Shown: one piece after another, positions 689-30,712 of the stretch
Position numbering within the stretch: position 1 is the first letter of the stretch
Layout of the letters: each line of letters starts with the position of its first letter
From: Amoebophrya sp. A120
Lineage: Eukaryota; Protista; Dinoflagellata
Assembly (NCBI GenBank): GCA_905178155.1
Contig: CAJINV010000012.1
Coordinates: 243,271-307,270, forward strand
DNA length: 64,000 bases
Direction of reading: 5' to 3'
Notes under the pieces: model-generated
The model's input: only the letters and a program-made list of their open reading frames with translations
The model's database searches: none
Told to the model about the DNA's origin: nothing
Position numbers and translations under genes: made by a program

Positions 689-3600
689 CTAAGGGAAAAC
701 TTCGCAGCTTAAAATCCGCTGTTTTGCATTCCTAGCAAGACGGAGACAAACCCATCTCAACTTCTGTGCTGCAGGACATGCTGCATTTTCGAATCCGAAA
801 GTTACCACAACTGAAGCAGTTTTTCCTATACGATAGCCGATGTTCAGAGTCGAGTGCCACCAGTCGTCGGGTAGCCACAATGCTTCGTCTTCATTTTGCG
901 TGCACATTTGAATCGTCGCCAGTATCCTGGAGAAAAGCGTGCCTGTACCCGTTTCAGATGGAAGATCTGGGAAAATCTGCTACGGCTACGCAGGTTCGAA
1001 AATTGATTTGCAAACTGCGTAGGACAAGCCTGAACCCGATGCAGTGCGGTCTTCTCTTCGTGCTTTTTATCGATGAAGACTTCGCTACATTTTCTATATT
1101 CTGATTGATGGAGGTTGGCAAATTGCGAAAGAGCAACACGAGTTGTTAAAAAGGCCCTCCATGCCTACCAGCATGCAACCAGACTTGCACTTGCTTCATA
1201 TGACAATCCGCATGACAAATTTACTGTCGTGGGCACGTTTTATTTCCACAGGATAGCGGAGTCTTTATCTTCTTGGTCGTAGAACCAGTTGAAGCTCGAC
1301 TTTTCCGGGTCGAAGGGTGCATCTATCAATTGCAAATATGTCTGATTCTGGAAGATTCTGAGACTTGTCATGCACGTTTTGCATGAGTCATGATATCTGT
1401 GACGCGTGCCCTAGCATCACAGATTTTTTGAGGGCTTCTTGATGCATATTCCGCATGACAAATGCCTTCTCCGCGCAGGAAAAATTGCACTCCCTTTGCT
1501 GCTCATGCAATACAGATTTTTTTGGAATCCAACTGCAGCATCACAAGTTGCATCCTTCCAGACCTAGACATATTTGCAATGCATAGGATCGACGGGTTTG
1601 CTATTTGCAGCGGAGGAGGTGAAAAGGGGTTTCTTTTCCACGTGTCGATGTCCTTGGGGATTCAGATTGTCCTGCTTGGTAGAAGTGGTTTTTGCAGCTT
1701 TCATCGAGTTGATCTTGTGATCCTGAAGTTGTAGATCCTCTTGGTCTTGTTTCGTCGCGGAAGCGACGACTCCTCCAGCCAAGTCCCCACTGTTCATCGC
1801 AACGTCGAAAAGATCAGACTCGGTTGACCCGCCGTGTCGCCTAGCTCCTCCGCGTCGCCCCGTTCTCGCCAGTTCTTTCCGGTGCGCTGCTGCTGCTGCT
1901 GTTGACGGGGAAGTGCGGCTGGGAGCAGGAGAAACATGTTCCAGGAGGTCCACCTGTTCTGTACTGTCACCAGTCGACTCCTGCACTGATCTCGCGCCCA
2001 CGATATTTTCGATCCCGACTGAAAGCAAGTTTGTGCCATCCTGCGTGGATGAAGTTGTAGGCGTCTTTATCAACAGTTCGACATCCTCGATTTTTGAAGA
2101 CGTGCTGGCGGACACCTCCGTAGTACTATGGGCTGCAGCTGCAGCTCTTGCGTGGGCGGCCGGAATTCCTTTTCGCTTCACCTCCGAGCTGGTCGGCGCG
2201 ACAAACCAGCGCTTGCGCCGGTATGAAAGTGGACAAGAACTTCTCGGCACCCACTACTTCCTCTCCTTTGTACTACAGCATCTTCAGCGACAGAAAGAGG
2301 TCCGGAAAAATGCAGCAACTACCGGACAAATTGACGTCCGGACAATAGCGCGGTTTATTGGGATTCATCCGGTCCTGGACGAACTTGTATATGCAAATAC
2401 TGTCCAATAGCAAACTACCAAGACTTATGCCGATTTTGCATGACAAGTGAGGAGGGGACCATCAAGGGGGTGTTCGGAGTTGTCCACTATCTTAGTCCAT
2501 TTGTCACTTCGAGCAGGGCCCCTCCGTGCCGGTGCAACGGGATGCCGGACCCCGTCCGCCCGATCCCGAAAGCCAGGGCGCCATGCTCACTGTTGGGCAG
2601 CCACGACGGGCGCACGTTATGCAATGCAAAAGCATCGTAGAAGTTGTAGAACCCGTTACTAGTAATTCTAATTGCAAGCAGGCATTGGCATTCCAAACCT
2701 CTTTCTGAAGGTAGACGCGCATTACAAATTCGATTCTCCTGCTAGAGAAACAGAAACTTGTCGTGCGCTTTCTACTAGTACGATGCAACTTTTGCGTGGG
2801 ATACACGTACTCGTCCAGTAACTCGGGCCAAAAATTGTCGCCGCACAGGTACCAGTATGGATTGCAAATATGTCTGGGTCGTCCTCTGGATTTGTGATGC
2901 GGGAGCGGGACTTCAAGGACAGCAGGTGAATGATCTGTATATGCCCTAATGCGATTGGACAATTTTGTTGTCGTGCTGTATGGAGGTAGTTTGTAATGCT
3001 AAATGCGAATGAATCCGAAAGAAGCTCAAGCTGAGGAAAACTTCTAATTACTGTTATGCCGTACAAGCAGCCATTCTGCAAAAGTGGCAGCAACCGTTAC
3101 TTATACAAGCTCCGCCCCCAGACATATTTTAAATGCGTAACCAGGTGGTGCTAGCATTTTTCTGCAGCTCGTGATTATGCACTGCAAAAGTATCGCACTC
3201 GTATAAATGCATTACAAATCTTCTCAGCGTGAGAAATGAAATTTGTAATGCTGATTTGCCTTGAGAGAGAGATTTGTAATGCATGACTGCAATTACTACG
3301 AGTGCGATACTTTTGCACAGGATAGTGATCGAGCGATGGCAGCCTCTCGAAGGTTTTCAAATACTCCGCGAAGCTCATGTACTTCTTGTCGTGCGAGTAA
3401 GTAACCGCGTTGGACAGAATCACCTGCTTATCTCCGAACTCGCGCAGCATCCTGTGCTTCTGCGTCTTCGCCTTCAGGGCGTGGTTGAGTCGGTATATGG
3501 AAGTGCCAGAATCGAAATTGACAAAATCGAAATGATTTGTCATGCATAAAATGGATTCCAGTTCGAACCCAGTTTCTAAGCGGCGCATGACAAATTCTGG

Positions 3601-5967
3601 TGATACCTAAATCCAGTTTGTGATGCTGTTTAGGCAAAGAAGACTGATTCTCTCATGCTGCTTCAGCAGCTCGAGCTATAACCCCAAACAGGCTTACAAT
3701 CGGCCTCACTTGCCTGCTCTGAAACACACGTATTTCGCGTCATGCATTTTATGCATCACAAGTTTTTCGATTTTATCAATTTCGATCCTGACAGTTCCAT
3801 ACGGTAGTTCGTGAACATGTAGGGTTTATTGGACCAGCTTTATCCAAATGAATAAATTATGGAAGCGTCAGGTTTGAAATCGTCAAAGTTGAAATAATTT
3901 GTAATGCATAAAATGCATGACCCGAGGCACGTGTGTTGCAGAGCAGGCAAGTGAGGCCGATTGTAAGCCTGTTGGGGGCTACAGCTCGAGCTGCTAAAGT
4001 AGCATGAGAAAATCACTCTTCTTTGCCTAAACAGCATGACAAACTGGATTTACTAACCACCGAAATTTGTCATGCGCCACTTGGAAACTGGGTTCCAAAT
4101 GGCGTCCGTTTTATGCATGACAAATTATTTCAACTTTGTCGATTTCAACTCTGACACATCCATATAAATCGAGGAAACCGTAGACGTTCCGGCGGTAGAT
4201 AATCAATGCATGGAAACGAAACTGTTCTTGTACAAGAACTTCAGTAAATCATATTCCGCATGACAAGTCTCATGCTCCTTCAGGTTGGCAACAATAAATT
4301 GTCTTCATCCGACATCACTATAATCCATTTCATTTGTGCTACATGTACGGTCACGTCGGTTGTAAATTTGTCTTGCATAAGTCCAAGCGGGCGGGGTCAA
4401 AATCTGGACTCGAGACGTCGATCTTTTCCCAGTCGTATCCTGTGCAAAAGTATCGCACTCGTAGTAATTGCAATCATGCATTACAAATTTTTTCCTTCAG
4501 GTAAATCAGCATTACAAATTTCCTTTCTCATGCTGAGGAAATTTGTAATGCGTTTATACGAGTACGATACTTTTGCAGTTCATAAGTCGCACCGGTCCAC
4601 ATCGCGGAGGAGAAAATCGTATCCGACAACAGTGTATCCTGTGCGAAAGTAGTATCGCATTCGTATAAATGCAAGTCTTGCATTACAAATATTTTTCCTA
4701 CAGGTATATCAACATGACAAATCTTATTTTTGATGCTGCGCAAATTTGTAATGCATTTATACGAGTACGATACTTTTGCAGTTCATACGGTGGACCAGTT
4801 GGCTTTATTCTCGACGTGCGGCGATTCCGGCTTCAGCATTTCTGGCTCCGTTGAAAAAGACGTGCCGGACGTGGTCGTCCTCGTGGCGCCGGGAGATTTG
4901 GGTCGTGGACCTGCAGAAGTCAATGCCGCAGTTGTAGTACCGGTCCTGGTGGTATCCTCCTCGTTAGCTGCAGGACCACCACTACCTGCACGGTGAGCAA
5001 TAAATTTTTCCAAGACTTCTTCATTTTCAGACGAAAGTTCCACTTCCTCCGAAAATTTTTCCTGCTCAAAAAATCGGATCTGCATCAAGTCCGGGGTTTC
5101 CGCGATGGTGTCCTTCCGTGAATTAGAGTCTTTGTGCAGCATGGGATCGTGCAAGTAACAAATCTGTTGTGGGTTCTCGGAAGTAGTGGATGAAACACCT
5201 CCTTCGCCGGCGAGGAGACACGTCTCGGTTTCAGGACGACCTTCCAGCGCCTGTTGCGCCACCTCTTCACTACTTTCTTGTGGTGGAAGCGCAGACGTAG
5301 TGGTAGTGGGAAGCGTCCTCCGCAGTAGTTCCTCTTCACCTCCGTCCACGAAAGGCGGTGAAAATCCGTCGACGCTTGCTTGACGTGTTGACTCAGCAGG
5401 GTCCACTTCCTGATCAGGAGGTGCTGTGCTGGTACCCGCTGCCTGTCCGGAAAAGTGCTTGTCACCTTCACCACGACGGGGAGGTACTAGTTGCACATGT
5501 TGTTCAATAACGCCTGCATCCGCTCGGGCGAAAAGAAAAAGACGGCCCAGAGACTGTTGCTCTCCATTCTCGCCACCGAGGATGGAAGACCACGTGAGCA
5601 GGCTGAAAATCGTGGCGCAGAGGAGGAAAATGGACACAAAGTAGGCGACAGCAGCTTTATCTCGCGATGGCATAATTCGGCGACGAAATAATCTCGATTC
5701 TGACCGACACGTCGAAGTAGTGCCGCTAGTACAACAACCGTCGTCGGAGAACATTTTAGCGTAGTTCTTTGGCCGAAAACGAAAATGATCGGTGCGGTGT
5801 CGTTGTTTCGCTCGGTCGGGACGAAGTACTTCCCAAGCGACGAGACGAAAATGCCTGTCGTTTAAATTTGACGCAGGCGAGCCGGAAGAAAAAAGCGTCA
5901 TGATGTAGTGGACGGCGGTAGGTCCGACCGTCTTCGTGGTGATTGTGGTAAATGCAGACTCGGGCAC
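689..5967 (-). CDS. JMJD8-like JmjC-domain protein with N-terminal hydrophobic segment; 10 introner introns; start codon uncertain
   Basis: Manual splicing gives ...RCDWEKIDVSS...LDWSNKPYMFTNYRLN...MLREFGDKQVILSNAVTYSHDKKYMSFAEY...TTWYLCGDNFW...FGIGRTGSGIPLHRHGGALLEVTNGRKRWFV...PFDPEKSSFNWF...IQMCTQNEDEALWLPDDWWHSTLN, colinear with JMJD8 motifs (HxH, GRKRW, PDxWWHxTLN). Confidence 0.85.
923..1255. mobile_element. Introner element (non-canonical intron), degenerate direct repeat
   Basis: tatcctgg...ccacaggata; flanks gccag/gcgga; removing element + 5 nt gives DSATIQMCTQ. Confidence 0.75.
1324..1585. mobile_element. Introner, family B (~260 bp)
   Basis: tatcaattgcaaatatgtct...agacatatttgcaatgcata; DR gcatc/ggatc. 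Confidence 0.85.
2222..2494. mobile_element. Introner, degenerate direct repeat
   Basis: IR tatgaaagtggacaa/ttgtccactatctta; removal + 5 nt restores EVTNGRKRW. Confidence 0.8.
2618..2803. mobile_element. Introner, family A
   Basis: tatgcaatgcaaaag...cttttgcgtgggata; DR cacgt. Confidence 0.85.
2856..3139. mobile_element. Introner, family B-like termini
   Basis: tatggattgcaaatatgtctggg...cccagacatattttaaatgcgta; DR accag; restores TTWYLCGDN. Confidence 0.85.
3176..3324. mobile_element. Introner, family A (149 bp)
   Basis: tatgcactgcaaaagtatcg...cgatacttttgcacaggata; DR gtgat. Confidence 0.9.
3496..3801. mobile_element. Introner, family G (306 bp)
   Basis: tatggaa...ttccata; DR cggta; reverse-complement paralogue of 3858-4164. 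Confidence 0.9.
3841..4379. mobile_element. Old introner hosting a nested element
   Basis: tatccaaatgaataaat...atttgtcttgcata; removal + 5 nt gives RLDWSNKPY. Confidence 0.7.
3858..4164. mobile_element. Introner, family G, nested in 3841-4379
   Basis: tatggaag...catccata; perfect DR taaat. Confidence 0.9.
4436..4584. mobile_element. Introner, family A (149 bp), opposite orientation to 3176-3324
   Basis: tatcctgtgcaaaag...cttttgcagttcata; DR agtcg. Confidence 0.9.
4635..4787. mobile_element. Introner, family A
   Basis: tatcctgtgcgaaag...cttttgcagttcata; DR cagtg/cggtg. Confidence 0.85.
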
Positions 5968-6837
5968 CAGAAGCGCCAGCCACTCAGAATTCTATTGACC
6001 ACTACACAACTTGTCCTCCTTGTCCTTGGGCAGCAGATGGAATGATCACAGAACCTGCTACAGCTTTCGCGCAGATGATCAGCTAGATCTCCATAGAGCT
6101 TTTTTTACGCACGATTGCAATCATCACTATCGGACAATAACGCCACAAATCATACAAAAAATGGTGTCACGTCAACATCTTACCAAACAGAAAAGTTGAT
6201 CTGATCCACTACAAAAGCAAAAAATAAAGAATGTCGCGATCTTGTTCGCCTGGTGCTACAAAATAAACCAAAGCTACTGGACCTGCTCTTATTTCGAGAT
6301 CTTTGAAAACAGATAAACAGATGTAGTTTTTTCGACCGAACTCGTACTTGAACTTGTTAGGTAGAAATATACCACAGGATCCAGCTGGCATAAAGTTATG
6401 TGCGTGTTGAGCTTCATCTTTGCCATCAAATCCCACCTCGTCCGTAGCACTATCCTATGACAAACAGGCGCAAATATCTGCTCAACACTCTGGCCAGTCA
6501 CGTGCTTGCAGCACACGGGCGGATCGTGTAGCAGAAAAATCCTTCTTCACTATAGTGAAGATGCTGCAGCAAGAGAAACAGCTGGAGCTGCAGCACTTCG
6601 TTCTACATTTCACCAGGAGCAAATAGTAATAGATCGAAAGGGGAACACAGTTGATCTTGATTAGGTGAAGTTGACCCGGCGGCGCCTGGTTATCTCTACT
6701 TCTACTTCATCTGCGATTTGGTTAACCTAGTTTCGGGAAGAGCAAGAAGGCAAGGAGGCCCAGGTTGGAAGAGGTCGTGCGAATGGAAATTCGCGGTGTT
6801 TGTGTAGTTACAATGTCCTAGCTCACCATCCACCTGG

Positions 6838-8056
6838 TAAAAATGGTCTACACGCAGCCCGATCTTCTACTTACAATGGTCTACACGCGCCAATGAGGGG
6901 CGTGGCGCCCGCGCGAGACCCGCGCGCGCCGCGCCAAATCGGGGCCGCGGCCGGCGGTCGGGTCTGTGGCCCGGGAGGGGGGGGGTGCATCCGGGGCCCT
7001 TTTTTTCGGAAAATTGCCCCCCTTCTTGGGGGGGGGGGTAAAATGGGGCCCAAAGTGGCCCATTTTACCCCCCCCCTGTAGCATCGGGGGAAGGGCCAAA
7101 ATTGCCCCCCCCTCAAAAGGGGGGTTCATTTTTCGGCTTTCTTGATCCCCGGGCCCCCGTTTGCTGCTTTGCCCACCCTTTGCGCGCGCACCTGCTCTGT
7201 TCTTGTCGTGGCGCCCCCTTGTCTATTGCCTTTTCGTCTGCTTCAACCGAGCGAAAGACGCCCACCGAGGTGTGGTCTACCTGCCATATGACTAAAATGC
7301 TTTGTGGCCTTGCAACTGAATAGCACCCCAGCGACATCATCCAAGAGAAATCATGAGCGACCCTCCGTGGCCCCGGCACCTCTTCGCTTCGCGGCCATTA
7401 GCAGGCCCGCGCGACAGCTTGTAGGCGTTCCGGCGGCGTCATGGTGCGCCTCAACTGCAATAAGCTCTGGCTGCCGAAGGAGGCGACAAAAAAAATATCG
7501 CCAAACGTATGGGCGGCCGCAATGGAGGCCTCCGGCCTGCAGGACGCGTCCCCGAGCGGACAGTGCAGCGCCGCGCCGGAGAAGTGCAGGATGCGTCTTG
7601 CGCAGCTCGTCGCGAAACCGCCGGCCGCCCCCACCCAAGCCTCCCAGAAAGGGGACGCCAACAAACAGCAGAAGGAGTGGACGACCACGGTGGGCATCAG
7701 CAGCGACGACGACCGCGCGAACTGGGAGAGGATCTTGAGCTGGGTGCCACAGCGCACCAAGCTGCACTGCGTGTGCAGGATGGACATCGACGATGGGGGC
7801 ACTGCAGATGAAAATCTGAACCCATTCAAATTCGAAAGAGGGCAGGACCTCCACGCAAACGCTTTTTCGAACGCTTGAACATGTACACAGACATATGAAA
7901 AAACACGCCCGCAATCTGGGGAAGTGGTTACTTCCCCAAATCAAGAAAACAACTAATTTCGCCCCCCCCTTCCAAGGTGTTCCCAAAAAACATGTACTTC
8001 TTCCGATTTTCTGGTCTAATAAAAATGGTCTACACGCAGCCCGATCTTCTACTTAC
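6838..8056. mobile_element. GC-rich insertion bounded by a 37-bp direct repeat; class unknown
   Basis: taaaaatggtctacacgcagcccgatcttctacttac at 6838-6874 and 8020-8056; internal G/C-run palindromes and a 145-aa ORF (7441-7878). Confidence 0.5.
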
Positions 8057-9115: not shown

Positions 9116-12100
9116 CTAGAATGAATCAGTATAGTCTTTTTCTCGTCTCATACTTCCGTTGACGATGACATTCGACGCCCCGTCCGCCTGCTGCTGGTGA
9201 AAGTCGGCGATCAGGTTCATGTATGCACTGCAAAAGTATCGCGCTCGTAGTAAAAATCGCTGTCATGCATTACAAATCTAGTTGGTTAGGTAAATCCGCA
9301 TTACAAATTCAATTTGTAAAAATGCTGAGCCAATTTGTATTGCGATTTTTACTACGTACGATGCTTTTGCAGTGCATATCATGGCCTCCTGGGTTTTCAG
9401 CTGCAGGTCGGACACCATGTCGGTCAGCGACCCGTAGATCATCTCGTCCCGCTTGTTGCCCTTGTGTATCATCTGCTCCGCCTGCGCCTGCTTCTCGTGG
9501 CACAGCTCCACCTGCTGCAACAGCTGCTTGTAGCGCTGCTCCATCTGGTTCAACTGCTGCTGGAGCAGGGAGTTCTGCGACTTCAGGGTCTCCACGTCCC
9601 GGTTGCTCGCGGCTAACACTGCGGCCTGCGCCGCCGAATCTTGGTATCAAAATGAAAAAATGTTGTTTCTGGGTCCTCTGGAAAGGGTTTTTATCCTGCT
9701 CGGCTGGAGGAAAGAACTCCATAGGAACCGCTTTGTTTTCCTCACGCGCAGCCAAGCATGAGAAGTTTTGGTGACGCGGGGGCCCATCATTTGCTGCGTA
9801 TTGTCCATGACAAAGTTTTACGAATCGCGTTTTATTCCCATGAGATGACAAACAACGGGAAAGACTCCCCATCTAGCATGACACGGTTGAAAGTCAGGCC
9901 AAATAAGCAAGACAAATGCAAGAAATCTTGCATGATTCACCTTTCCAGACCCAAAGAACATCACATTTGCAATGGATATTTGGGAAGTAGAAGCGTTGTC
10001 CGCGGAAGTAGTGGTTGGCTTCGCGCGCGCGCCCCGTGGTCTGGTGGTTGTACCTCCGGCTCCGGCGGCAGGCTGTTTCCGTGAGGTAGAAGATGAGAAT
10101 TTCAAGTATGCACGACAAATGTTCCGTCGATCATGTTGACATCTTCTTCTCATGTACTACGGACTGTTTGATTTACAAGGTTACGAGCAAAGTATTTCAA
10201 AAAATGGAAATGTCTACATACATCATTCGCTCAAATTCTACTTCGACTCCGAAATGTAACAAAGACGCAACGAAAGAAAATCATCATCTAGCAAATCATC
10301 AACTCTGTCCATCAACTAGTTCTAGTACCTGCTGCACCACCTGCACGACGACGTTCTCGCTGCTGTTCCCTCCGCCAAACCACGAGCATCCGTTCAGGAA
10401 CCAAAAGTTGAACCAGAGAAAAAGCACTGCCAGGTAAAACACCGCCACCGGGGGGTGCTCGTAGAAAAACGCGGACAGCTTCACGGTCTGCAGACTGGTA
10501 TCAACTGCAAAAGTGTCTGGGTCTGGGAGGATGGGACTTGTGATGCGTCCTGTGGGTCACACAAAAATCTGTGTTGCGTGATCAGCAAAAGTTGTCCTTT
10601 TTTAACCAACACGAGCGGGAACTTCTCATGCCGGGTAGGCATGATAGAGACTTCGCAGAATTTGTCATGCTAGGTCCCGCATTCCAGACCTCATGGGGCA
10701 TGTAAAATATGCATGACAAGTCTGCATTCGTCCAGACCCAGACATTTTTGCATTTGATAACTGGCGTAGAATTCCAATTCCGTCGCGAACCACTTTGCGT
10801 AGACTGGCACTGCTATGCAATGTAAATTTCCCGCACATGTACAAAATGCATGACAAATTCCGCTAACTTGCAGTGTACAACTTGTCATGCTAGACTAGGA
10901 TTGAAGGCAAGTTTTGTCATGCAGAGACTGCATTTGTACGTGTACGGGAAATTTACTGTGGATAACTGCGTACTTGAGTTTATCCAAAAAAACCTCTGAA
11001 CTCAATGCGTCGACTTTCTTCACGGAGGGGGTCGCGGTCGCCGTCGCACCTCTGCCGGCCGCTGCTTTCGACGTATTCGGGCCCTGCTGTGATCTCGCGT
11101 GGTTGTGCGCCGGAGGGGCTACTCTAGTGGAAGCAGGCGCAGGATGCTGCTTGTTGTTTTGGTGAGGCTGCGGCTGTGAATGTGATTATTTGAGGTTGAT
11201 AAATCGGATGTACAAAGGAGAATGGCAAATGTTGATTTTTTTGTAAGTATGTTCTTCATATACATATTTGCTTTGTTCCAAAACTTGAAATCGCAAGAAT
11301 GCCGAAACAAGACGACCTGCTTCATCTTCGCCCCTGTAGAAATCTTGCCACCAAATAAACTACACGCACGTACAAGTAAAGATAAGTACCTCGGCCGCCG
11401 TGTTTTGTTGCTGCTGTCCCCCCGGCTGCCCGGCCGCTGGCTGCTGTTGCTGCGAAGTCGATCCGACCGTCGCCGCAGTGTCTCCTCCTGGGGCCGCCCC
11501 CGGCGGTACCTGACCACCTCCCGGAGGCGCCACGCCCTGTGCAGTCGCTTGCTGTTGCTGCTGCTGCCCTTGCTGCTGTTCCTGCCCTGCTGATAACGAC
11601 GCTGCAACGCCTGGTGGGCCTGTGAGATGTTGCTGGTGGTGCTGTTGTTGCGCCCCTCCAGCGGGCAGAGAGGCCGACGTGTCTGGTTGTTGCTGGTTGT
11701 AACCTGGAGAACCACTAGCAGCAGGAACTTGTTGGTGTTGATTCAGTTGTAAAGACGGGTCTTGCAATTGCTGCTGCTGCTGCTGCTGCGCATTCACATT
11801 ACCGACCGCATCATCTTGCGGAATCTGTCCTGGTAGTTGCTGTTGTCCGTTTTGTTGTACTACCCCTCCAGCACCTGCCGCTGCTCCTTGCTGCTGCTGC
11901 ACCGGGTCGACCCCCAGCTGCTGCACCCCCTGTGTAATTGTGGCAGTACCTGCTCCAGCAGCGGGATAATTGTTGTTCCCAGCCGCGCCGAGGTTCATTG
12001 GCGTTCCCAGGTTGCTGTTTTCCACCTGGTGAGCATGAGCAGTACCATCGCCCGGGACCACGCCAGCACTTCCCTCCGCTCCGCCGAGCATTTCCCCGGC

Positions 12101-18100: not shown

Positions 18101-18951
18101 GGCAGAAGAATAAGGCCGCACAGCTCCACGATCTAGCTCGTACCGCGGGTGCACTTTGCACGAGTCCGAGTCGCATTTGGTACTCGGGTATGCATTTTTG
18201 CAAAAGTACTACGTAGATGTAGAACTAATAGCATCACAAATTTATTTGCCACGAAGAAAAGTAGAATTTGTATATGCTGATTTAGATTTACCTAAGATGG
18301 CAGATCTGTCGTGCATCACTTCAATCACTACCGGCACGATACTTTTGCAATGCATATCGGAAGGAAAAACTCGCCACTGCCGGTGTCGAAAAGGACGCGA
18401 ACTTTCAGCTGCTGATGTTGGCCCAGGTACATGTCCCCCGAGTAGTCGATGGCGTGTAGCTGGTACGTCTTCTCCATTTCCAGCTTTTGCTGGAGCAGGG
18501 ACTTGTTTCTCTTCGTCCTGTGCGTGATGGAGGTCCCAGTACTAGTGGCGCTATCTGTTTGACGTCCGCGGGCCAGTTTCAGTTTGTCCCGGTCTGCGGC
18601 GAAAAATTCCGCTGTGGTCGCACTGCGGTAGGACTTGTTTAGAAAGATCTTGAACCCAGAAGCAAGAGGAGACGGCCTGAGGAAAAGTGACGCAATACAC
18701 ATCGCAGACCACAAGAACCTCACTTGGCCGGCGATGCGCCGAGCCGCAACACCATATGGCCCCCGACGACTGGCGCCCATCATTCCTCTTGGCGGACCAA
18801 GGAGGTCAGTAGCTGAACAGGCCATCCTCCGAAGCACCGACAAGGTGAAAAGGGGACGAGACGACGGATTGACTCCGTGGAAAACACGGACACCCTTTGA
18901 TGTCTTGCTGCTCCTCTTGGTCGGTATTCTGGCAGCTCCTGCGCCGCTCAA
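15108..18951 (-). CDS. Pepsin-family (A1) aspartic protease with N-terminal signal/anchor; 6 introner introns; start uncertain
   Basis: Spliced: VLFDTGSGEFFLPSTKCDSDSCKVHPRY...GAVLGLSLP...GYWQLKIEDLTIGG...CQAVIDSGSSVILGP...LILGMPFLRKFATVF...RLGF; both catalytic Asp motifs present. Confidence 0.9.
15577..15725. mobile_element. Introner, family A
   Basis: tatcctgtgcaaaag...cttttgcaaaccata; DR actgg. Confidence 0.9.
15832..16117. mobile_element. Introner, family C (~280 bp)
   Basis: tttcctgagtgaaaatgtcc...ggacgtttttactcaggata; DR tagtc. Confidence 0.85.
16169..16319. mobile_element. Introner, family D, opposite orientation to 10814 and 24272 copies
   Basis: tatccacagtaaatttcccg...tattgcata; DR gcagc. 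Confidence 0.9.
16502..16705. mobile_element. Introner
   Basis: tatggacagcaaag...ctttgcaacgcata; DR ggcag; restores CCQAVIDSG. Confidence 0.85.
17261..17524. mobile_element. Introner, family B
   Basis: DR gccca; restores GAVLGLSLP. Confidence 0.9.
18189..18356. mobile_element. Introner, family A-like
   Basis: DR tcggg/tcgga; restores FLPSTKC. Confidence 0.85.
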
Positions 18952-20042
18952 GACAACGCAGTCATGGAGGTTCTTCGTACCACAAAAGTACCCAGTAGCG
19001 GAGAATCTTTTTGCGTTTCACGTCTCCAACAAGCCACCTGAAACAGGAAAGGATTTCTTCTTTCGGCAGCAGACGGTATCGACCGCGAAGTATCGGCCTG
19101 GCGGTTCATCATGTGTTTCACTTTCAACGTCGATCGATACAACGCCGGTCCATTTTTTCGTTCAATAGCAATACTAGAGAGAGTTTTTGAATTCATGAAG
19201 CAACTTCGCAAGACGACGACATAATGGAAACAAGAATGGCAAGTCGACCCAGCGACCTGCTGGCACTCGCACTCTGCGGTTCCTGCATTGAAGTCGGAAG
19301 AAGTAGAACACAGCGAACTCACAAGCATGTGGGTCTGCTCTGTATTGCAGGCAGTCTCCGGCTCCGCCGTTTGCATACGCGCACGCTGGTCTTGGTGAGC
19401 CTTGTTGGAATTTGAGTTTGTTACTCTAAAATGTAAAGTATTCAGCTTTCATTATTGGATGTTGTCGTCTCAGTCCTTTTTTCCCACTCTAGTGGCTCTG
19501 TGTGCTAGAAAGAGTTTCTCATGAAAAAGAACAAAACCACTCGAGGAAAACGAAAGTCGTTATGATCCTAGTAGCAAAAAAGCTATAATCGAAGTTCTTC
19601 ACAGAAATCTGTACGGTGAAAGAAATAGGTGCTATTCTTCTATTGTCTCCCTTATGAAAAATCAATCCCCATGGTGAAAGGTCTCTGGTGCGCAAAGCAA
19701 CAGATTCCTACTCCTACTACGGGAATATCACAACGATAGAACGTGGACATGTATCACATAGCGTATAGCGTACTTTCCGTACGCATTTTGATTTTCAAGC
19801 GGTTCTATATCAACCTTCGTAAAATACAATCAGCTCCACTTGATCTTGATCATACATAGAAACAAGCGGTAATTAAATTTGATTGGGATATTAGAGATCA
19901 TACGACTGATAAGATATCAACAGACGCATAATTTCACCTGGTTCCAATTCGCGCCTGGACGTCGACGATATTTGGATGTAGAGAAGATAGTCTTGAAAAA
20001 ACGACGACAACTTCTCCGCATACAGTATCACTCGTCCAGACT

Positions 20043-23000
20043 TTATGAGGATCAGCTCATCACGCGCACGCCGGCTTTCCCAAACTGCCAATCGGGCGAG
20101 CGGGTGTTCCACTTACAGGGCAGGGAATCGGTGTATGGGTTCTCAAACAGCTCGTGAAGTTCCCGGACGACGGACATGTCGCCCTGTTCCGCAGCTTCGT
20201 AGGCCAACACCATTTTTTATCCACAGTAAACTCAACACCGTAGTACACGACGTTACGTACCAGTGCGCTTTCATCTGCATGACAAAAATACTGCCAGCAA
20301 GAGCCCTACGTATACAGGAGCATGACAAGCCTTTTTTACACCCTGAAGTTGCCGAACTTTGTGATGCATCTGGTACATACGTTTACGTGTTGTACAGGAA
20401 ATTTGTATTGCATATCATCCAGTTGCGCGGGATTACTGCGGGGGAGGTCGCTTTCATCTCGGCTACAATTGGTTTCTCACTGTTGTTTTTGTTCACCTTC
20501 TTCACCATTTCTGTCCAGTCGTCCAGCCACTTCCTGCTATGCATTGCAAAAGTATCGTATTCGTATAAATGCATTACAAATTTCCTCAGCATGGAAAATA
20601 AAATTTGTAATGGTGATTTACCTTAAGTAACGCATGACTGCAATACGAGTACGATACTTTTGCACAGGATACCTACAGTTTGGTGACAATTTGGATCCCG
20701 TTGAGGAGCTGCCCGTCGTGCTGGTACTACTACCCGCGTCGGATTGGAAATTCTTGTAGTAAAACGCATTTTTGAAAATCACGTCGGCGTTTGCAGCGGT
20801 GTTTTTCCCGAAGTTTTCGTCCAAAGCGAGATTCGACAAGGCCCGGAAGAAGTGCGTGAAGTCCAGCTATCGTAAGGAAAAATCCCCCATCCCCATATCA
20901 AAAAAGTACGCCTCAGAAAATTTGTAATGCTGATTTGTGACCACAAGTCTTTTTGTCTTGCAAGAAGGCAGCTGTGGAGTCTCCGCCGCATCACGCGGGC
21001 GGTTTGTGATGCTGCTTGGGCTACAGCATAGACATTTGTGATGCTAAGCGTCCACGTCAGAGACAAGCTCGGCACTCAGGCACGGCATAAGTTGCCTGCA
21101 GTCCTCTACTGCAAGACAGCTCTGATTTGTTTGCGCACATCCAGCATCAGAAACTTCGTTTTGATATGCGGAGGGAGGATTTTTCCTTTTGATACCAGCT
21201 TGTCTTTCTCCATTACTGTTTCCAACGCCTCGTAGAGCTTCAAACAGTCGTCGTTCCACGATTCCAGACCCAATTTCTTGCGGCAATTTTCGTAGTGGTT
21301 TTTTTTCCACATCTCCGGGTACCCTTGCAACAGCTTCTGCATCTTTTCGATGAGCGACTCCTGCTTTTTCTCGTCGTTCGCAAACACCGCTACCATCGCC
21401 TGACACAGCGTCATCAGATATGACAATGCACAACTCCCCCTCCCCCTCATTTGTCATGCAAAATCCCAAATCCAGTCGCTGCCCTGTGGCACTGTCTGCA
21501 TGACAACTTTCGAAAGCCCAAAGAACAGTAGAAGTACTACGGTAGGCACGAGCATAAATTTGTCTTGCACAGGCTCCAGGGTCGATAGGTCGTGCAATAC
21601 AAATGAGGGGGAGGGGGAGTTGTGCAGTGTCATATCAGAATCACCTGCCCGGCCAGCGGCTGGTTTTTGTACGCAAACTTGCCCTATGCATTGCAAATAT
21701 GTCTGGGTCCGGAAACTTGTGATGGTGGTTGGACAAAGAGGAGCACGCCTCAATTGGCTGCCGAGCATGACAAGTTTTGGAGATACTGCAGTGTTGTACA
21801 TTCTGCATGACAAACTGGGCTTCTGCATGACAGAAAGCAAGTGCTTTTGGGTGATCTGCATGACAAACCTGAGAAACATGCTAACAGAGCATGACAAACC
21901 TTTCATCTTTCCAGACCCGGACATATTTGCATTTGATATGCCCTCCATGTCGCCCTCCCAGATCTGCTGCATCCGGTTGTACTCCTCCAGCATGTATCCT
22001 TTGCAAAAGCATCGCACTCGTACAATTGGAATTGCAGCTAAGCATGACAAATTTTTTTCCCAGGCTAAATCAGCATGACAAATTCCCTTTGTGGTCATGC
22101 TGCGAGAATTTGTATTGCAATTACTACTAGTACGATTCTTTTGCATTCCATAGCATGCCGAAGGGGCCGAAGTCCATCGTCCGCCCGCACAGCAAGGCGT
22201 ATTGTGAGGAAAAACGTCCCCACCCCGGAGTTGGCATGCAAATACGCATGCTTCAAATGTTTCTCATGCGCAACCCCATGAGAAGACGCGTTTTCTAGTG
22301 CTGTTTCGGAATTTGTGATGCACGAATCAGCATGATAGGGAAGGTCTGCAATGCTGCTGAACTAGCTAAACAGGATTACAGGAGGAGGCCAAATCTGTCA
22401 TGCGAAACAGCCAAAGCTGGTTGATGATTTGTGTAGCAGATTCCCCATCTTGAGTCTGGGGTGGGGACGTTTTTACATGGGATAAGGCGTTGTCGTTGTT
22501 CATGTTGCCCTGGATGTACCCCACCCGTAGCCACTCCGTGTGCAGCTTCGCCTGGCGCTGGGCAAAAATCTCGATCATCTTGAAAATCAAATCCACCGAA
22601 AGCTGATCCCCATGCTCGTCGTCGTTCCCCGAAGGCAGGAGGTGGTTGATTTCGGTATCAAATGTAAAAATGTCTGGGTCTGGAAGAATGCATGTTTGTC
22701 ATGCTTGTCTGGCATGACTCCTAAATCTGTCATGCACATTGCCCAAGAGACGTTTTTTTCTGTCATGCGGAGACGCAGTTTGTCATGCAGAATAGGCAAC
22801 ACCTACAAGGGCTCAGAAATTTGTCATGCTGAGCCAGCACTTGTGGCCTCCTCATGCTACGCCACTCAGCATCACAAGTTTCCAGACCCAGACATTTTTA
22901 CATTTGATATTCGGGAAAGTCGCGCAAAATTGCGAACTTCACGATTTGTACCAGTTCGTGGTTTATGGATTGCAAAAATGTCTGGGTCTGGAATGTTGCC

Positions 23001-25092
23001 GGGTTTGTCGTGCATATTCTGCGTGACCCAGGATGTCTGTAATGCACGACCTAGCCTCACAGATTTTTAGTTGACTTCCTGATGCCTACTCCGCATGACG
23101 AATGCCCTTCCCGCGTAGCACAAACTTCTAGCCTCCTCCTGCTGGTCATGCAATACAGATTTTTTTGGAGTCCAAAGCTAGCATCACAAGTTCCAACCTT
23201 CCAGACACAGACACTTTTACATTTGATATGGTTTTTCCTGGTTCGCGCAAACAGCTCCATCTGTCCGACCCGTAGAAAACTGGGACTCGCCCGACACGTG
23301 ATGGCGCACGGCTCGGTCTTCATGATCTGGTAGTTCTGCTTGATGCTGCTGTCCCCGTACCAGGCCCGCTGGATGGTGGTCTGCGGGCTGTTCGGCTTGT
23401 CCCCGCTGGCGTAGAGGCAGAGCGCGCGGGTGGAGGGCACGCCGAGGTGGTAAAACGCCTCGCTGGCGAGGAACTCGCGAATGCTGGACCGCAGGACCGC
23501 GCGCCCGTCGTGGTTGCGGCTAAAGGCCTATCAAGTGTAAAGGTGTCTGGGTCTGGAAGATAATTCCGAGATTTGTCATGCAGTTTTTCCAAGCGCCATT
23601 AAGTCTGGAATGCAGGACCTAGCATCACAGGATCTGCAGCCCCTTTGTGATGCCTCTTCTGCATGAGAAATGCCCCCTCAGCATGGCCAGAATTTTTGAG
23701 CACCTTTTGCAAGTCACGCAACCCAGATTTTCGTATGATGCGCAACATGCATCACAAGTTGCATCCTTCCAGACCCAGACATTTTTACATTTGATAAGGC
23801 CGTGCGGCCGGACCCCTTCAGCTGCAGTTCCCAGGTTCTCTCTTGCGTGCCCGCACGGGCCTCCACCTCCACGATGCTCATGGCGCGGCCGTCCCCGTAC
23901 CCAAACACGCCAAAGGGGGAGTTGGTGGCCCAGTAGCCGTGGACGCTGACTCCGTAGCAGGTCGCCCAGGGGTGGAAATTCATTTTCTGCCACTTCTCCG
24001 GAACGGTAGTCGAATCCGCAGAAAATGTTCGCATGAAGTTCTCGTCCTTCTCAAATTGTACGTACTCCAAGTCAAGCTCCCGCGCGAAGGTATCCACAGA
24101 AAAAAACCCATCTTCCACACCAAATTTGTCATGCAAAACATACATAAAGTTCTGTGTTTGTCATGCAAAAAATGGATGTGGATTGGTTTTTTTCTCTGGA
24201 TAGAAGGATTTCGAGTAACACACCAAATACGGGTTCTTCAGCGGCTCGCCCTTGGCGATTACGTAGTGCCCTATGCAATGTAAATTTCCTGTACATGTAC
24301 AAAATGCATGACAAATTTCGCTACCTTGCAGAGTCCAACTTGTCATGCTGGACTAGGATTGAAGGCAAGTTTTGTCATGCAGAGACTGCATTTGTACGTG
24401 TACGGAAAATTTACTGGGGATATGCCCCTTCTTGACCGCACGAGACCGGTGCGGATCCACCACGCCCTGGTCTGGGTCAGTGGACAGATGTTTCAGCTAT
24501 CCTATGTAAAAACATCCCCACCCCAGAGTTGTCATGCAGATTTGCAAGCACCGGAGCATTTGTAATGCGCATCCCCATGAGAGGCATTTTCCATCGTGTT
24601 TTGGAACTTGTAATGCTGCAAACAGGATAAGGAGATGGATTTGCTATGCTGCTTCCCTTGCTAAGCTGCACTACAGTGCACCATGCAACTTGTCATGCGT
24701 GACCCCCAAAACTTCAAGGTTTGTGTTGCAAAATCCCCATCTCGACTCTGGTGTGGGGACGTTTTTACATGTGATATCAGCAGTTGGTTGGTCACCGTCA
24801 AGTCTCCGAGCTTCTTGGTGCCGGGAGTTGAGGGTGGTCCGGAAGGCCCGGAAGCTCGCGAGGGCGCCGAGGTGGTCATGATCGTTCTTTTTGATGTTGC
24901 CTCCTTAGTAGTTTTAGTGTGAGGACAAGAATACGATGATGCCGGCGCAGCTGGCGAAGAGGTCGTCGCTGATACGGTTGAGTGGTTGTGGTTAATATGG
25001 GTCCTCGCGGTAGAACAAGTTGATGCCACCTGGCCGACAGTTGTACTGAGCTTCGAAACTACGTGCTGCGACAGCTGCTGCACACGTCGCAT
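20043..25092 (-). CDS. SELENOO: Selenoprotein O (SelO/YdiU protein adenylyltransferase), 13 introner introns, probable Sec UGA at 20052-20054
   Basis: Spliced motifs GDGRA, [83 protein letters not shown]; ends MS-TGA-SS-TAA; N-terminus is basic and S/T-rich like a mitochondrial presequence. Confidence 0.95.
20218..20414. mobile_element. Introner (family D-like ends), downstream DR decayed to A5
   Basis: tatccacagtaaa...tttgtattgcata; flanks ttttt/tcatc; removal + 5 nt gives PRNWMMVLAYEAAE. Confidence 0.85.
20538..20671. mobile_element. Introner, family A
   Basis: DR cctgc/cctac. Confidence 0.9.
20868..21194. mobile_element. Introner (327 bp)
   Basis: tatcgtaaggaaaaatcc...ggatttttccttttgata; DR ccagc; restores KLDFTHFF. 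Confidence 0.9.
21419..21634. mobile_element. Introner with long (~35 nt) near-perfect TIR
   Basis: tatgacaatgcacaactccccctccccctcatttgt...acaaatgagggggagggggagttgtgcagtgtcata; DR tcaga. Confidence 0.9.
21685..21938. mobile_element. Introner, family B
   Basis: DR tgccc. Confidence 0.9.
21995..22152. mobile_element. Introner, family A
   Basis: DR gcatg. Confidence 0.9.
22200..22484. mobile_element. Introner, family C
   Basis: aaaaacgtccccacc / ggtggggacgttttt IR; DR aggcg. Confidence 0.9.
22656..22909. mobile_element. Introner, family B
   Basis: DR ttcgg. Confidence 0.9.
22964..23228. mobile_element. Introner, family B
   Basis: DR tggtt. Confidence 0.9.
23529..23796. mobile_element. Introner, family B
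   Basis: DR aggcc; restores [10 protein letters not shown]. Confidence 0.9.
24091..24202. mobile_element. Introner, family E (~110 bp)
   Basis: tatccacagaaaaaaaccc...ggttttttctctggata-type IR; DR gaagg. Confidence 0.9.
24272..24422. mobile_element. Introner, family D
   Basis: DR tgccc; highly similar to 10814-10964. Confidence 0.9.
24498..24776. mobile_element. Introner, family C
   Basis: DR tcagc. Confidence 0.9.
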
Positions 25093-28020
25093 AGGAAGCT
25101 CAAATGAAAGACAGGTGTGTAGTTAAGCATCCATCCTATGTAGAGTGCAAATGAAATAGCTATGCTACATGAACGTATTTTGGAGGTCATAAGCTCCTGA
25201 TTTGATGATTTTGCCTTTTTCTGTGGAGAGACGGAGCCTATCGTATCGAAGAGAGTCCAGCAAATGATATGGTGTACTTCTCAAGTGTTAGTATGTTTTC
25301 CTTGTGCAGATGGTGATCGTATTTGAAATGTGATCGTCGTCCCGGCGACAAGAAACCGTTTTACTCTTACTTCGGCATGTCGATCACTCTTTGGCTGAAC
25401 TACTTCTACTAAGTGCGTCCTTTAGAAGATCATGCTCCACCTCCTGCTGCTCATGCACTTTCTTATTTTCATATCTTTGTATAAGGCGTCTTTATTTTTT
25501 CCTTCTTCGGAAATAAATAAAGGGTTATTCATTATTTCTACCATGATTCAGGAGGTGCTGTGCGTTTCGCCGCAAGCGCAAGGTCGCTGTTGTACTACAT
25601 TCATATGGAAGCGGCAACACTCAAAAAAACTGCGGATGATTTTCTTTTCTGAGAAGCGCCATGTCGTTCGCTCTGGAAACACTCACAGGTCTCATTTAGT
25701 AGAAGAGCTGCTCTCCTTACGGCCCAAGAGAAGGGGTTCGCGCTTTCTGTGCGTCGTAAACCCTCGAGAAGTAGGAAAGAACACACTCGTGGGCAGCTGC
25801 ACGTTGTCGCCATCTGACAGACGACGACGTTATGTGCGCGGCATAAATTAACGCGCGGTCGCGCCACGTCGCCGCGGGTGCAATGAGGTTGCACAGTCTG
25901 GAGAAGGCACGAATACTTGCGCACTGATCATGATCAGATACTGCCATGGACTTCAGCTAATCCAGCCTCGTCTTCCGGCACTGTGGCTGAGCTGCCAACA
26001 CGCACCGGCTCGCAACCGCGGCTGAATGACAGACGAAAGCGAAACAAAGTGTTCCGAAAGAAATAACTCGCACCCAGCGCGGGCAACCCAGGACGCGACC
26101 GACGGCGCCACGGGCCGGCAGACATACCGAACGCGCGGACGGAGAGCACGCGGGCGCGCCCAACCTATCGAAGACGGCCAGCGAGAATGGTGCGCGGCGC
26201 GAAACGCCCGCAGGCGGCGGGGCCGGCCGGCCAGCCGTGCCGCCCCCCGGGCGGGTGCTGGCTCGCTGCGTGCGGCCCCACATTCCGGCCGAAGCTCAAC
26301 AACTGAAAGGGGGCGCGCGCGTGCTGGTACCCCCGCAAGAAGCCCACAGGCACAAAGCGCGCGGGCCCGCTGGGCCAGCCAGATAAAACGGCCAAGCCGG
26401 GAAAGGGGGGCCGACGCAGGCAGATGAAGGCGCACAGGGGTCCGAATTCGACGAAAATGATATCGGGCGGCCCCGACCCCGCGTCTGTGCATCCTCCACT
26501 GCATTTTCCAACCCGGCCCATCCGAGGCCGATCGCCATGCATTATCGAGGGCGCGGCCGTGCGTAGGGCCGCCCGGCTTTGGCCTTTCAACATGCCCGGG
26601 AATCCAAGCGCGCCATCGCGTCAAAAGCCGGCGGGCGCGCCGCGCACTATAGCACACCTACTGGGGCGCGTGCTCTGCTTCAATACTGATACCAGTAGGC
26701 CCATGCTGTTTGTTCCTCTGCTGTGCATCATCATCATGTAGTGGACACCCGCTCCCAGCGCCAGTGTGCGTTGCCGTTGTATTCCATCCTCACAAGTATG
26801 ACAGTTAGTCGCTTCGGCGGGTCGCGGGGCAACGGCATTTTGTTCGTTCGCTCGTCTCTCTACCTCGTCACAGAAGCACGAGCAGGTCGCTGCAGAAAGA
26901 AAAAGCAAGCTCCAAACAGTAACAGGCGCCTCATCTCATGCATCTCAACGCTCGTCGCCCTTCTTCTCTCTCCTTGCTCCGTATAATATCTACCACTTCT
27001 GAGGCGCTCGAGGGTGTTCTTTTCTTTGGCGCCTCACTGTGATGTGGTTCCTTCCTGTGCAGCATTCTCAAGGAGGACGGGAGAACAAATACAAAAGAAA
27101 CTACCCGCAAACCATGCGATCCTCGCATTGGCCTGAGTATGGCCGCAGTGAGTTTGCTTCGTCTTTGATCTACTTTCGTCTCCATTTACTGGGAATATTT
27201 CTGTTTTGTATCGCGGATGGAACTTCCTTTCTCTGTGCTGATTTTCGATTCGGTCAAAGAAGCAAGAGCAAAGTTTGCTTATTAGCGCTCCGTGGTTCAA
27301 TCCACCAATTCTATGCTCGGATTCCCTCCATGGTGTTGCAGCTGGACACTCGCGTTGACCGCTGCTGCAAGGGTGTATGAAAGTGCAAAAAGCTCGCCGC
27401 AGCTGCGCTTTGCTGACGAGGAGCAGGAATTTCTCAACTTCATGATCATCTATGCATCCATTCATTAGCCCTCTCTACTATGCAGTAGATGCGTTATAAT
27501 TCATCAAATTCATGCGCTACTCAATGTTGTGCTCTTGTCTAGCAACTGGCAGCAACTTCTCGCATTCTCCTCCATATTTCATCCGCTTCTCGCTTTTCGG
27601 CTGCCTCCTTTTCCTGCATGGAGATCAGCAACGCCATTTCCAGCTCCTCTTGCGATTTGCTCTTGTTCATTTGCAGGTATGGCGCCGAGAAAAAAAGGCT
27701 GCAGTATCAGATTGGAACCTCTTATTCCTAGACTATTCTCAAAAAGAACCAGTACGTCGGCCTCAGCATCGCTTTTCCTTTAATCGTCTTTCAGAAAGTC
27801 GATTTCTCTTCTTTATCTTTTCGTCGAAAGTCACTTTCTCTCTTCGAAAAGATAAAGAAGTGCCTCGATCTATGTACGTGTACTAAAGGTAAACTTCCAA
27901 TCCCTGCAACCCGGTCTTTTCTTTCATACTGGAGGCGCCACGGCCGCAGCTCCATCCCCGGATTTGTTTTGTTCTTCAGTCGAAATACTCCGGGAGGCGG
28001 GGTTGCTATTCGGAGGCTGT

Positions 28021-28146
28021 TATGCATTGCAAAAGCATCGTACTAGTATAAAACGCATTGCAATTTGTCATGCCGTTTCAGGTAGAAAGTTGGATTTGTC
28101 ATGCATATCTGCAATCAGTACGAGTGCGATACTTTTGCACAGGATA
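28021..28146. mobile_element. Introner, family A (126 bp)
   Basis: DR gctgt. Confidence 0.9.
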
Positions 28147-28937: not shown

Positions 28938-29047
28938 TATCGAGGAAAAAACACCCATCCGCATCCATTTTTTGCATGGTAAACAGTGCAGTTTATGCAT
29001 GTTTTGCATCACAAAACGAATGTGGATGGGTGTTTTTTTCCTGGATA
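28938..29047. mobile_element. Introner, family E, opposite orientation to 24091-24202
   Basis: DR tgcct. Confidence 0.85.
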
Positions 29048-30558: not shown

Positions 30559-30712
30559 TATGCAACGTAAATTTGCCGCAGATGTACAAAATGCATGACA
30601 AATTTCGCTAACTTGAACTGTCCAACTTGTCATGCTAGACTAGGATTGAAGGCAAGTTTTATCATGCAGAGACTGCATTTGTACGTGTTGTACGGGAAAT
30701 TTACTGTGGATA
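30559..30712. mobile_element. Introner, family D
   Basis: DR ctggt. Confidence 0.9.

What the first reader, a model, noticed from the sequence alone, without database searches (positions are those of the whole stretch)
3176..29047. The same introner families are used in both orientations
Seen: family A at 3176-3324 and 4436-4584 are reverse complements inside the same gene and both restore the frame. Family D at 16169 is inverted relative to 10814 and 24272, all in minus-strand genes. Family E (24091 vs 28938) is also inverted, though the host gene at 28938 is unresolved. Inference: no strand-specific donor, branch point or acceptor is needed. The symmetric stem is the signal and transcription direction decides which DR is discarded. 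This supports DNA-level MITE-like insertion over reverse splicing.
Basis: partly seen in the sequence, partly recalled or inferred. Interest (0 to 1): 0.8.

Follow-up and report, generated by a model that had tools for sequence, protein, structure and literature searches.

The report
Transposon introns spliced in either orientation
Small hairpin-shaped transposon copies, already published for the marine parasite Amoebophrya A120, sit in its genes facing either way and are missing from transcript contigs in both directions at one fixed offset, likely because their mirror-image ends give a loosened splicing machine the same start and end signals whichever way they face.

Summary
Observation confirmed and extended. 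The window matches Amoebophrya sp. A120; the elements are its published introners. A 3176/4436 are 90% reverse complements in one gene; D 16169 is inverted (92-93%) against 10814/24272; E is inverted only weakly and its host is unresolved. Transcript-like contigs lack both orientations of A, D and B, always element plus 5 nt; a DNA-like run keeps them. In 420 stranded elements from other loci, 9 of 9 families with 4+ copies occur both ways, none departing from 50:50. Mismatched duplications fix one register: 1 nt before TAT, 4 nt after ATA, set by transcript direction. Best reading: DNA-level MITE insertion, removal by an adapted spliceosome reading signals inside the inverted repeats (inferred; no lariat seen). 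Either-way introners are known elsewhere with GT/GC-AG ends; orientation was not found reported for Amoebophrya. Two earlier scan notes on other pieces of this genome reached the same register.

The parts
3176..3324 (-). Family A introner, TATC end first in the transcript, 5-nt TSD perfect
   Evidence: joint 3170>3325 skips 154 in runs X1 and X4; contig arithmetic exact
4436..4584 (-). Family A introner, opposite orientation (TATG end first), same gene
   Evidence: joint 4430>4585 skips 154 in X1; 90% reverse complement of 3176
4635..4787 (-). Family A, TATG first, imperfect TSD; limits the register to -1..+1
   Evidence: joint 4628>4787
20538..20671 (-). Family A, TATC first, imperfect TSD; excludes the mirrored register; reads GT..AG at the +1 register
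   Evidence: joint 20532>20672
9222..9378 (-). Family A, 4436-type orientation
   Evidence: joint 9216>9379; orientation
15577..15725 (-). Family A, 4436-type orientation
   Evidence: X4 contig of 1043 nt equals span minus four elements+5 exactly
10814..10964 (-). Family D, majority orientation
   Evidence: X4 contig piece stops at 10965; 307-nt arithmetic exact
16169..16319 (-). Family D, inverted copy, in aspartic protease gene
   Evidence: X4 contig piece resumes at 16320, length arithmetic exact; X5 contigs keep both ends in DNA
24272..24422 (-). Family D, majority orientation, in SelO
30559..30712 (-). Family D, fourth copy, 6 nt from another element
24091..24202 (-). Family E, in SelO
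28938..29047 (.). Family E, weakly called inverted copy, host unresolved
1324..1585 (-). Family B, imperfect TSD (register 0..+1)
   Evidence: joint 1318>1586
10499..10759 (-). Family B, inverted against 1324, 17261, 22964, 23529
   Evidence: orientation; removal by contig arithmetic
15832..16117 (-). Family C, inverted against 22200 and 24498; 3' end mutated (AAA) yet removed
9645..9978 (-). Element whose TSD differs at the discriminating base; excludes register 0
   Evidence: X4 piece ends at 9640 with 0 other letters; the far side is inferred from arithmetic
3496..3801 (-). Family F copy 1
   Evidence: joint 3490>3802 in X1
3858..4164 (-). Family F copy 2, inverted (85%), nested in element 3841-4379; its 5' end is joined to the 3' end of copy 1 in a hybrid joint
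   Evidence: joint 3491>4166 in X1 and X4, no shared letters, register exactly +1
3841..4379 (-). Outer element with decayed TSD holding the nested F copy
   Evidence: joint 3835>4380 in X1
1256..5991 (-). Host gene 1 (801-codon ORF after removing 9 elements; cupin/JmjC-like by eye only, no Pfam hit on three exons tested); ends approximate
15108..19017 (-). Host gene 3, aspartic protease, 6 elements; ends approximate
20115..25122 (-). Host gene 4, SelO, 13 elements; ends approximate

Best explanation
These are short inverted-repeat elements with 5-nt target duplications that lie in exons in either orientation and are absent from transcript contigs at one register (1 nt before TAT, 4 nt after ATA); they likely inserted as DNA transposons and are likely removed by the parasite's own loosened spliceosome, which would read signals carried inside the inverted repeats. 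Shown: both orientations, near 50:50; removal of element+5 nt; the register; its dependence on transcript direction; no GT/AG requirement; unequal conservation of the two ends. Inferred: at that register every intron starts N-U-A-U-(G/C), a donor with a free first base; the near-invariant A at -7 serves as branch nucleotide; the 3' cut is measured by distance, so no AG is needed; the long stem from TIR position 8-9 onward holds the two ends together. Because the repeats are inverted, either orientation delivers the same donor-like start and the same A at -7, so any insertion at any target sequence is removable and the exon is restored to the base.
For: Joints and exact contig arithmetic for 20 elements (13 direct; 7 by length); the only register compatible with all 15 joints tested is +1 (7 of these have perfect TSDs and do not discriminate). 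DNA-like run X5 keeps the elements at depth 25-26. 9 of 9 families with 4+ copies in both orientations, binomial p 0.10-1.0. U at +2 deviates in 3 of 413 while its partner deviates in 9; A at -7 deviates in 1 while its partner deviates in 11; window copies 2222 and 2856 with a changed +4 base and 15832 with a changed -6 base are still removed. Published Table S4 lists nine predominant A120 end pairs, all with T second. A120 keeps U2, U4, U5, U6 and nearly all spliceosomal proteins; U1 was not detected. Giardia spliceosomal introns use [G|C]TATGT and a branch point fused to the 3' end; Fritillaria non-GT/AG introns need the U2 spliceosome. Both orientations fold alike: -66.5 and -63.3 kcal/mol, z -8.9 each.
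Against: No lariat or spliceosome dependence was seen. The 3' end has no likeness to a standard branch sequence and the -7 A is predicted paired (P about 0.75 at 20 C). About half the elements have C, not G, at +5 with only a slight bias (97 vs 74, p=0.09). An endonuclease could equally need these bases. The asymmetry rests on about 24 deviant ends with strand inferred from a codon model (31 of 33 right in leave-one-gene-out), no RNA for those loci. The register k=+1 is pinned from below by only two joints (9645 and the hybrid). All RNA-tested genes are on the minus strand. No transposase and no empty-site allele were found or searched for.
Confidence: 0.55

Rival explanations
1. One reading: a non-spliceosomal nuclease-ligase (tRNA-splicing-like or the unknown euglenid pathway) measures staggered cuts from the base of the RNA stem.
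For: Strong stems in both orientations; no terminal dinucleotides; sense strand slightly more stable than antisense (218 of 404, p=0.04); U.G favoured over C.A at family A position 21 (36 vs 5); hybrid joint across the 274-nt inverted F pair; U1 not detected; Euglena uses a paired motif with fixed spacers.
Against: At TIR position 3 pairing predicts tolerance of A-to-G on the 3' side; seen 1 of 420, against 11 pair-breaking changes on the 5' side. No wobble excess outside family A (422 vs 397, p=0.40) nor at position 16 (12 vs 11). The hybrid joint also fits each end being read locally. The register puts U at +2 and A at +3 as in ordinary donors; the window's GT-AG introns start GTAC.
Confidence: 0.32
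2. The junctions are reverse-transcriptase template switches across hairpins with short direct repeats, not splicing.
For: Hairpin plus direct repeat is the classic setting (own knowledge); only assembled contigs were available; the hybrid joint breaks the frame.
Against: Joints with 0-1 shared letters still remove exactly element+5 (1318, 2216, 3491); keeping any one element breaks the ORF in 6 of 6 and 13 of 13 cases; the spliced SelO aligns with the A25 orthologue at 56% identity; ends are under direction-specific constraint.
Confidence: 0.04
3. The copies spread by reverse splicing of the excised intron RNA.
For: They are repeated introns; no transposase was identified here.
Against: Reverse splicing would give sense orientation and no 5-nt duplication (own knowledge); seen are near-equal orientations, mixed within subfamilies (nearest core neighbour opposite in 69 of 121), perfect 5-nt TSDs in 389 of 595 calls and a nested insertion with its own TSD.
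Confidence: 0.03
4. The joined forms are DNA-level precise excisions or insertion polymorphisms, not RNA processing.
For: X1 and X4 are only guessed to be RNA by the tool; the joint table for the DNA-like run was crowded by repeats (84 rows hidden).
Against: The same X4 contig also lacks GT-AG introns (11174-11389; 10073-10328 by arithmetic); X5 contigs run unspliced through 9645 and 16502 and across element ends.
Confidence: 0.02

Closest known systems
Amoebophrya sp. A120 introner elements (Farhat et al. 2021, PMC7789003; Gozashti et al. 2025, PMC12130899)
   Same: Same organism by a 100% protein match; TAT + 7 nt + A-run ends, short direct repeats, hairpin, non-GT-AG ends.
   Different: Orientation of the elements is not mentioned in the main text or the supplement text that I could search; the intron border is drawn there as variable or unknown. 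The single register, the direction-specific conservation and the hybrid joint are additions. The 2025 screen required same-orientation similarity.
Either-orientation introners of Aureococcus and Polarella glacialis (Huff et al. 2016, seen only second-hand in PMC10228655; bioRxiv 10.1101/2020.10.14.339549)
   Same: TIR/TSD elements that create introns in both orientations without changing the mRNA.
   Different: Those recruit GT/GC/GA and AG from element or TSD, need particular target sequences and all Polarella classes cited show an orientation bias. Here the target sequence is free and no family-level bias was detected.
Euglenid nonconventional introns (PMC12501133; PMC11282704)
   Same: Paired termini, non-canonical ends, fixed spacing between paired motif and cuts, proposed MITE origin.
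   Different: Signature N3CDG...CHG N5-6|R is absent; no purine rule at the exon start (241 of 413 vs 54% background).
Giardia type A introns (PMC10711314) and Fritillaria non-canonical introns (PMC13326754)
   Same: Spliceosomal introns with relaxed ends; Giardia donor [G|C]TATGT and branch point fused close to the 3' end.
   Different: Giardia keeps AG and a long conserved 3' motif and is not transposon-derived; Fritillaria keeps preferred end dinucleotides.

Membership tests
Amoebophrya A120 introner elements | Terminal inverted repeats starting TAT, then about 7 nt, then an A-run | tested here: met
   end logos of 420 elements and window list against the published text
Amoebophrya A120 introner elements | 3-5 nt direct repeat at the borders | tested here: met
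   5 nt; perfect in 389 of 595 calls (the caller favours this)
Amoebophrya A120 introner elements | Removed from transcripts, non-GT-AG ends | tested here: met
Amoebophrya A120 introner elements | Repeated families in the A120 genome | tested here: met
   P0001 match; X5 summed depth up to 49,000 over elements vs 25-28 on unique DNA
MITE (non-autonomous TIR DNA transposon) | Short, non-coding, TIR, fixed-length TSD, either orientation | tested here: met
MITE (non-autonomous TIR DNA transposon) | Cognate autonomous element or transposase | not tested
   no whole genome held; Farhat found none in A120
MITE (non-autonomous TIR DNA transposon) | Empty-site allele in a close relative | tested here: inconclusive
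   none of 96 fetched loci overlaps unique window sequence
Canonical U2 spliceosomal intron | GT/GC donor | tested here: not met
   +1 base free (126 G of 413); +2 U and +3 A are kept
Canonical U2 spliceosomal intron | AG acceptor | tested here: not met
   35 of 420 vs 39 in the exonic copy
Canonical U2 spliceosomal intron | Lariat at a branch A; dependence on U2/U6 | not testable with these tools
   only contigs held the stretch; raw-read runs X8, X9 laid 18 and 14 partial reads
Aureococcus/Polarella either-orientation introners | Intron creation in both orientations | tested here: met
Aureococcus/Polarella either-orientation introners | Canonical splice dinucleotide recruited from TSD or element | tested here: not met
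   TSD composition flat at all five positions
Euglenid nonconventional introns | N3CDG...CHG N5-6|R signature | tested here: not met
   end logos, exon-start base
Euglenid nonconventional introns | Excision as non-lariat circles | not testable with these tools
   no raw reads of this strain

The most novel reading that the evidence does not exclude
Amoebophrya has a general 'transposon-healing' RNA excision pathway, possibly outside the spliceosome, that removes any TAT...ATA element from any target sequence in either orientation by a fixed -1/+4 rule, restores the exon to the base, and pays for it by cross-joining the ends of neighbouring inverted copies; orientation is then filtered only by fine stem quality (U.G allowed, C.A not).
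Probability: 0.25. Interest if true: 0.85.

Novelty: new variant of a known kind. Interest (0 to 1): 0.52.

Why it matters
How the 60% or more of Amoebophrya introns without GT-AG ends are removed is left open by the genome paper. Orientation-blind removal at a single register turns this into one sharp test: a lariat branching at the A seven bases before the 3' cut means an adapted spliceosome; its absence means a new excision chemistry. It also explains the invasion: with free target sequence and free orientation nearly every exonic insertion is harmless at protein level, unlike introners that need a GT or AG in the target. Practically, annotation and introner screens that cluster only same-orientation copies will split or miss about half of each family. 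The elements themselves and either-way introners in other algae are already published, which caps the novelty.

Tried and rejected
Whole-genome analysis: no genome is held for this window, so genome-wide counts come from 96 loci picked by one family A end motif. Splicing efficiency by orientation: not measurable; raw-read runs X8 and X9 laid only 18 and 14 partial reads, and no holder is on record as RNA. Second lay: the DNA-like run filled the 15 visible joint rows, so D, B, C removal rests on contig pieces and length arithmetic; 15 of 30 joints were hidden and 84; one visible joint (1350>17487) joins two family B copies and was set aside as a repeat artefact. D 24272, E 24091 and E 28938 were never laid on RNA. 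Idea that the fifth TSD base must match: suggested by old window copies, rejected in 420 elements (mismatches 34, 24, 26, 33, 24 by position, p=0.49; very old copies are under-called). Idea of drift towards AG at the 3' cut: rejected. General selection for U.G over C.A: not significant outside family A. Cryptic canonical sites inside family A (a donor-like motif mid-element in one orientation, an acceptor-like CAG in the TATC end): not used in any joint seen. Host gene at 28938: not resolved. 214 of 420 stranded elements could not be assigned to a window family and are not in the orientation counts; 41 of 96 loci were dropped for lack of a confident strand. Huff et al. 2016 is not held and was seen only second-hand; figures of the Farhat supplement (S19-S25) could not be seen and may show orientation or register. 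Not-in-print statements rest on searches and in-paper searches.

Full report
Identity. An exon of the SelO gene at 23231-23521 matches a protein named Amoebophrya sp. A120 at 100%, and my spliced model of that gene, with 13 elements removed, is identical to it over 691 residues and 56% identical to the A25 orthologue. The elements fit the published A120 introner signature (Farhat et al. 2021, PMC7789003: abstract, passages, sections 10, 11, 12, 16, supplement text search and part 3 of 5 read). No whole genome is held.

Observation. The inverted pairs are at the stated coordinates. Scored in both orientations against their own palindromy and 200 shuffles, A (102 vs 238) and D (86 vs 254-258) are clearly inverted; E (74 vs 118, self 96) only weakly. 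A caller for inverted ends plus 5-nt repeat gives 49 calls against 1-3 in 3 shuffles. In a hand-curated list of 54 elements all 8 multi-copy families occur both ways: A 4:9, D 3:1, B 4:1, B2 1:2, C 2:1, F, E, G 1:1 (counted on the minus strand, some hosts unverified). The four genes that I rebuilt are on the minus strand; keeping either A copy in gene 1, any of 6 elements in the protease or any of 13 in SelO breaks the ORF. The host at 28938 is unresolved.

RNA evidence. Runs X1 and X4 are contigs, guessed RNA. One search showed 15 of 30 joints: 13 remove one element, one is a hybrid, one is a repeat artefact. Both A copies are skipped (154 nt each), and contig lengths leave no room for extra letters (245 and 95 nt). 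In one search an X4 contig of 1043 nt equals the span minus four elements plus 5 nt each, including inverted D 16169; another fits removal of D 10814, inverted B 10499, element 9645 and a 256-nt GT-AG intron. DNA-like run X5 keeps these elements at depth 25-26. So 20 elements are removed, with both orientations for A, D and B. Efficiency by orientation could not be measured.

Register. All 15 joints tested remove element+5 nt. Seven have perfect repeats and do not discriminate; six imperfect ones allow 0..1, 0..1, 0..2, -1..1, 0..2, -1..1, and 20538 allows 0..3; 9645 requires at least 1 (near side seen, far side inferred); the hybrid requires exactly 1. The one value that fits all is 1 nt of the upstream repeat plus 4 nt of the downstream repeat. 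The mirrored register is excluded for both orientations of A (20538, 4635), so transcript direction decides. At this register every intron has T second, as do all nine predominant A120 end pairs in Farhat's Table S4, and 20538 reads GT..AG.

Larger sample. A 26-nt family A end found 98 stretches in one metagenome-collection assembly (96 loci, 503 kb; same strain or a relative, unknown; no overlap with unique window DNA). Of 595 calls, 420 unique elements lie in the 55 loci with a confident strand (codon model right for 31 of 33 window elements). Of these 206 were assigned: A 51:70, B 19:13, C 12:7, D 5:3, E 2:4, G 1:5, F 2:3, I 2:2, H 3:1, B2 1:0; no p below 0.10. Opposite orientations are mixed within A subfamilies. 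Target repeats show no sequence preference, no G at +1 and no AG at the end.

Against 'stem only'. Caller and strand call are blind to end identity, yet the ends differ: TIR position 3 deviates 11 times at the 5' end and once at the 3' end (the A at -7), position 1 deviates 3 times at the 5' end (U at +2) and 10 times at the 3' end (9 after removing duplicates); interaction p=0.001-0.003. Pairing alone predicts the reverse at position 3. Positions 4-7 pair in only 46-61% of elements, positions 9-13 in over 90%. Orientation is also not wholly neutral: the exact anchor variant lies at the 3' end 44 times and the 5' end 12 times (p=2e-5), traced to position 21 where U.G outnumbers C.A 36 to 5 (15 to 2 without anchors), while position 16 shows 12 to 11. 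This is unexplained.

Mechanism. Insertion at DNA level in either direction with a 5-nt staggered cut is inferred from orientation, TSD and nesting. For removal I favour (0.55) an adapted U2-type spliceosome: N-U-A-U-(G/C) as donor, A at -7 as branch, 3' cut by distance, stem as splint. A120 keeps U2, U4, U5, U6 and lacks a detectable U1; Giardia offers a [G|C]TATGT donor with a fused branch point (PMC10711314, passages); Fritillaria removes non-GT/AG introns with the U2 spliceosome (PMC13326754, introduction and passages). That U6 rather than U1 reads donor positions +2 to +6 is recalled, not tested. A stem-measuring nuclease-ligase remains a strong rival (0.32); Euglena shows a paired motif with fixed spacers (PMC12501133, abstract and passages). 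Template switching, reverse splicing and DNA polymorphism are unlikely.

Hybrid joint. 3491>4166 joins the 5' end of nested F copy 3858 to the 3' end of inverted F copy 3496, shares no letters, obeys the same register, appears in two samples (X1, X4), skips a 34-nt exon and truncates the ORF at 442 codons. It shows the cuts do not need matching repeats. It was not checked in DNA or by direct RNA reads.

Known versus new. The elements are published; either-orientation introners are published for Polarella and Aureococcus (bioRxiv 10.1101/2020.10.14.339549, passages; PMC10228655, one passage), but with canonical dinucleotides and biased orientation. Gozashti 2022 (PMC9860276, passages) allowed opposite-orientation matches; Gozashti 2025 (PMC12130899, passages) required the same orientation; the Mikina review (PMC11282704, parts 1-2 of 5) assumes spliceosome adaptation without a register. 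Eight searches found no statement on orientation or register for Amoebophrya; subscription papers and supplement figures were not visible. Two earlier AI notes on other pieces of this genome report the same register and the -7 A; I had noted both before, and they are not independent support. Verdict: real, a new variant of a known kind, interest 0.52.

Noticed in passing
window 3491-4166: Hybrid joint between the ends of two inverted family F copies, at contig depth 84.9 against 64 for the frame-keeping joint in X1 and present in X4; may be a cost of orientation-blind removal (depth of contigs is a poor measure).
   Followed up: partly
window 3841-4379: An introner nested inside another, 17 nt from the outer element's 3' end, with its own 5-nt duplication.
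   Followed up: partly
window 30316-30712: Two elements 6 nt apart with overlapping duplications; at the +1 register the exon between them would be 1 nt, implying ordered removal.
   Followed up: no
loci L001-L078, family A TIR position 21: U.G outnumbers C.A 36 to 5 in the transcript stem, position 16 shows no bias; unexplained orientation filter.
   Followed up: partly
inside most elements, window and loci: A shared 9-nt motif of the GCATGACAA type occurs in unrelated families in both directions (512 forward, 524 reverse in 413 elements); candidate transposase or splicing-factor site.
   Followed up: partly
window 30769-30880 and 39756-39808: Truncated family A copies with one end only.
   Followed up: no
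window 31900-39600: Satellite-like arrays: a unit of about 100-120 nt at 31.9-33.7 kb and a G+C-rich unit of about 178 nt, some 30 diverged copies, at 33.8-39.6 kb.
   Followed up: no
window 30920-31790: Long inverted and short tandem repeats flanking the satellite, unrelated to the TAT...ATA elements.
   Followed up: no
window 6880-7170, 26100-26650, 40500-41250, 45800-46500, 52000-53700: G+C-rich islands upstream of or between genes; the first has a G-run/C-run inverted repeat at 7030-7076.
   Followed up: no
window 6838-6874 and 8020-8056: An exact 37-nt direct repeat 1.2 kb apart near the 3' end of gene 2.
   Followed up: no
window 10073-10328, 11174-11389: Ordinary GT-AG introns (both start GTAC) share a gene with five introners.
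   Followed up: yes
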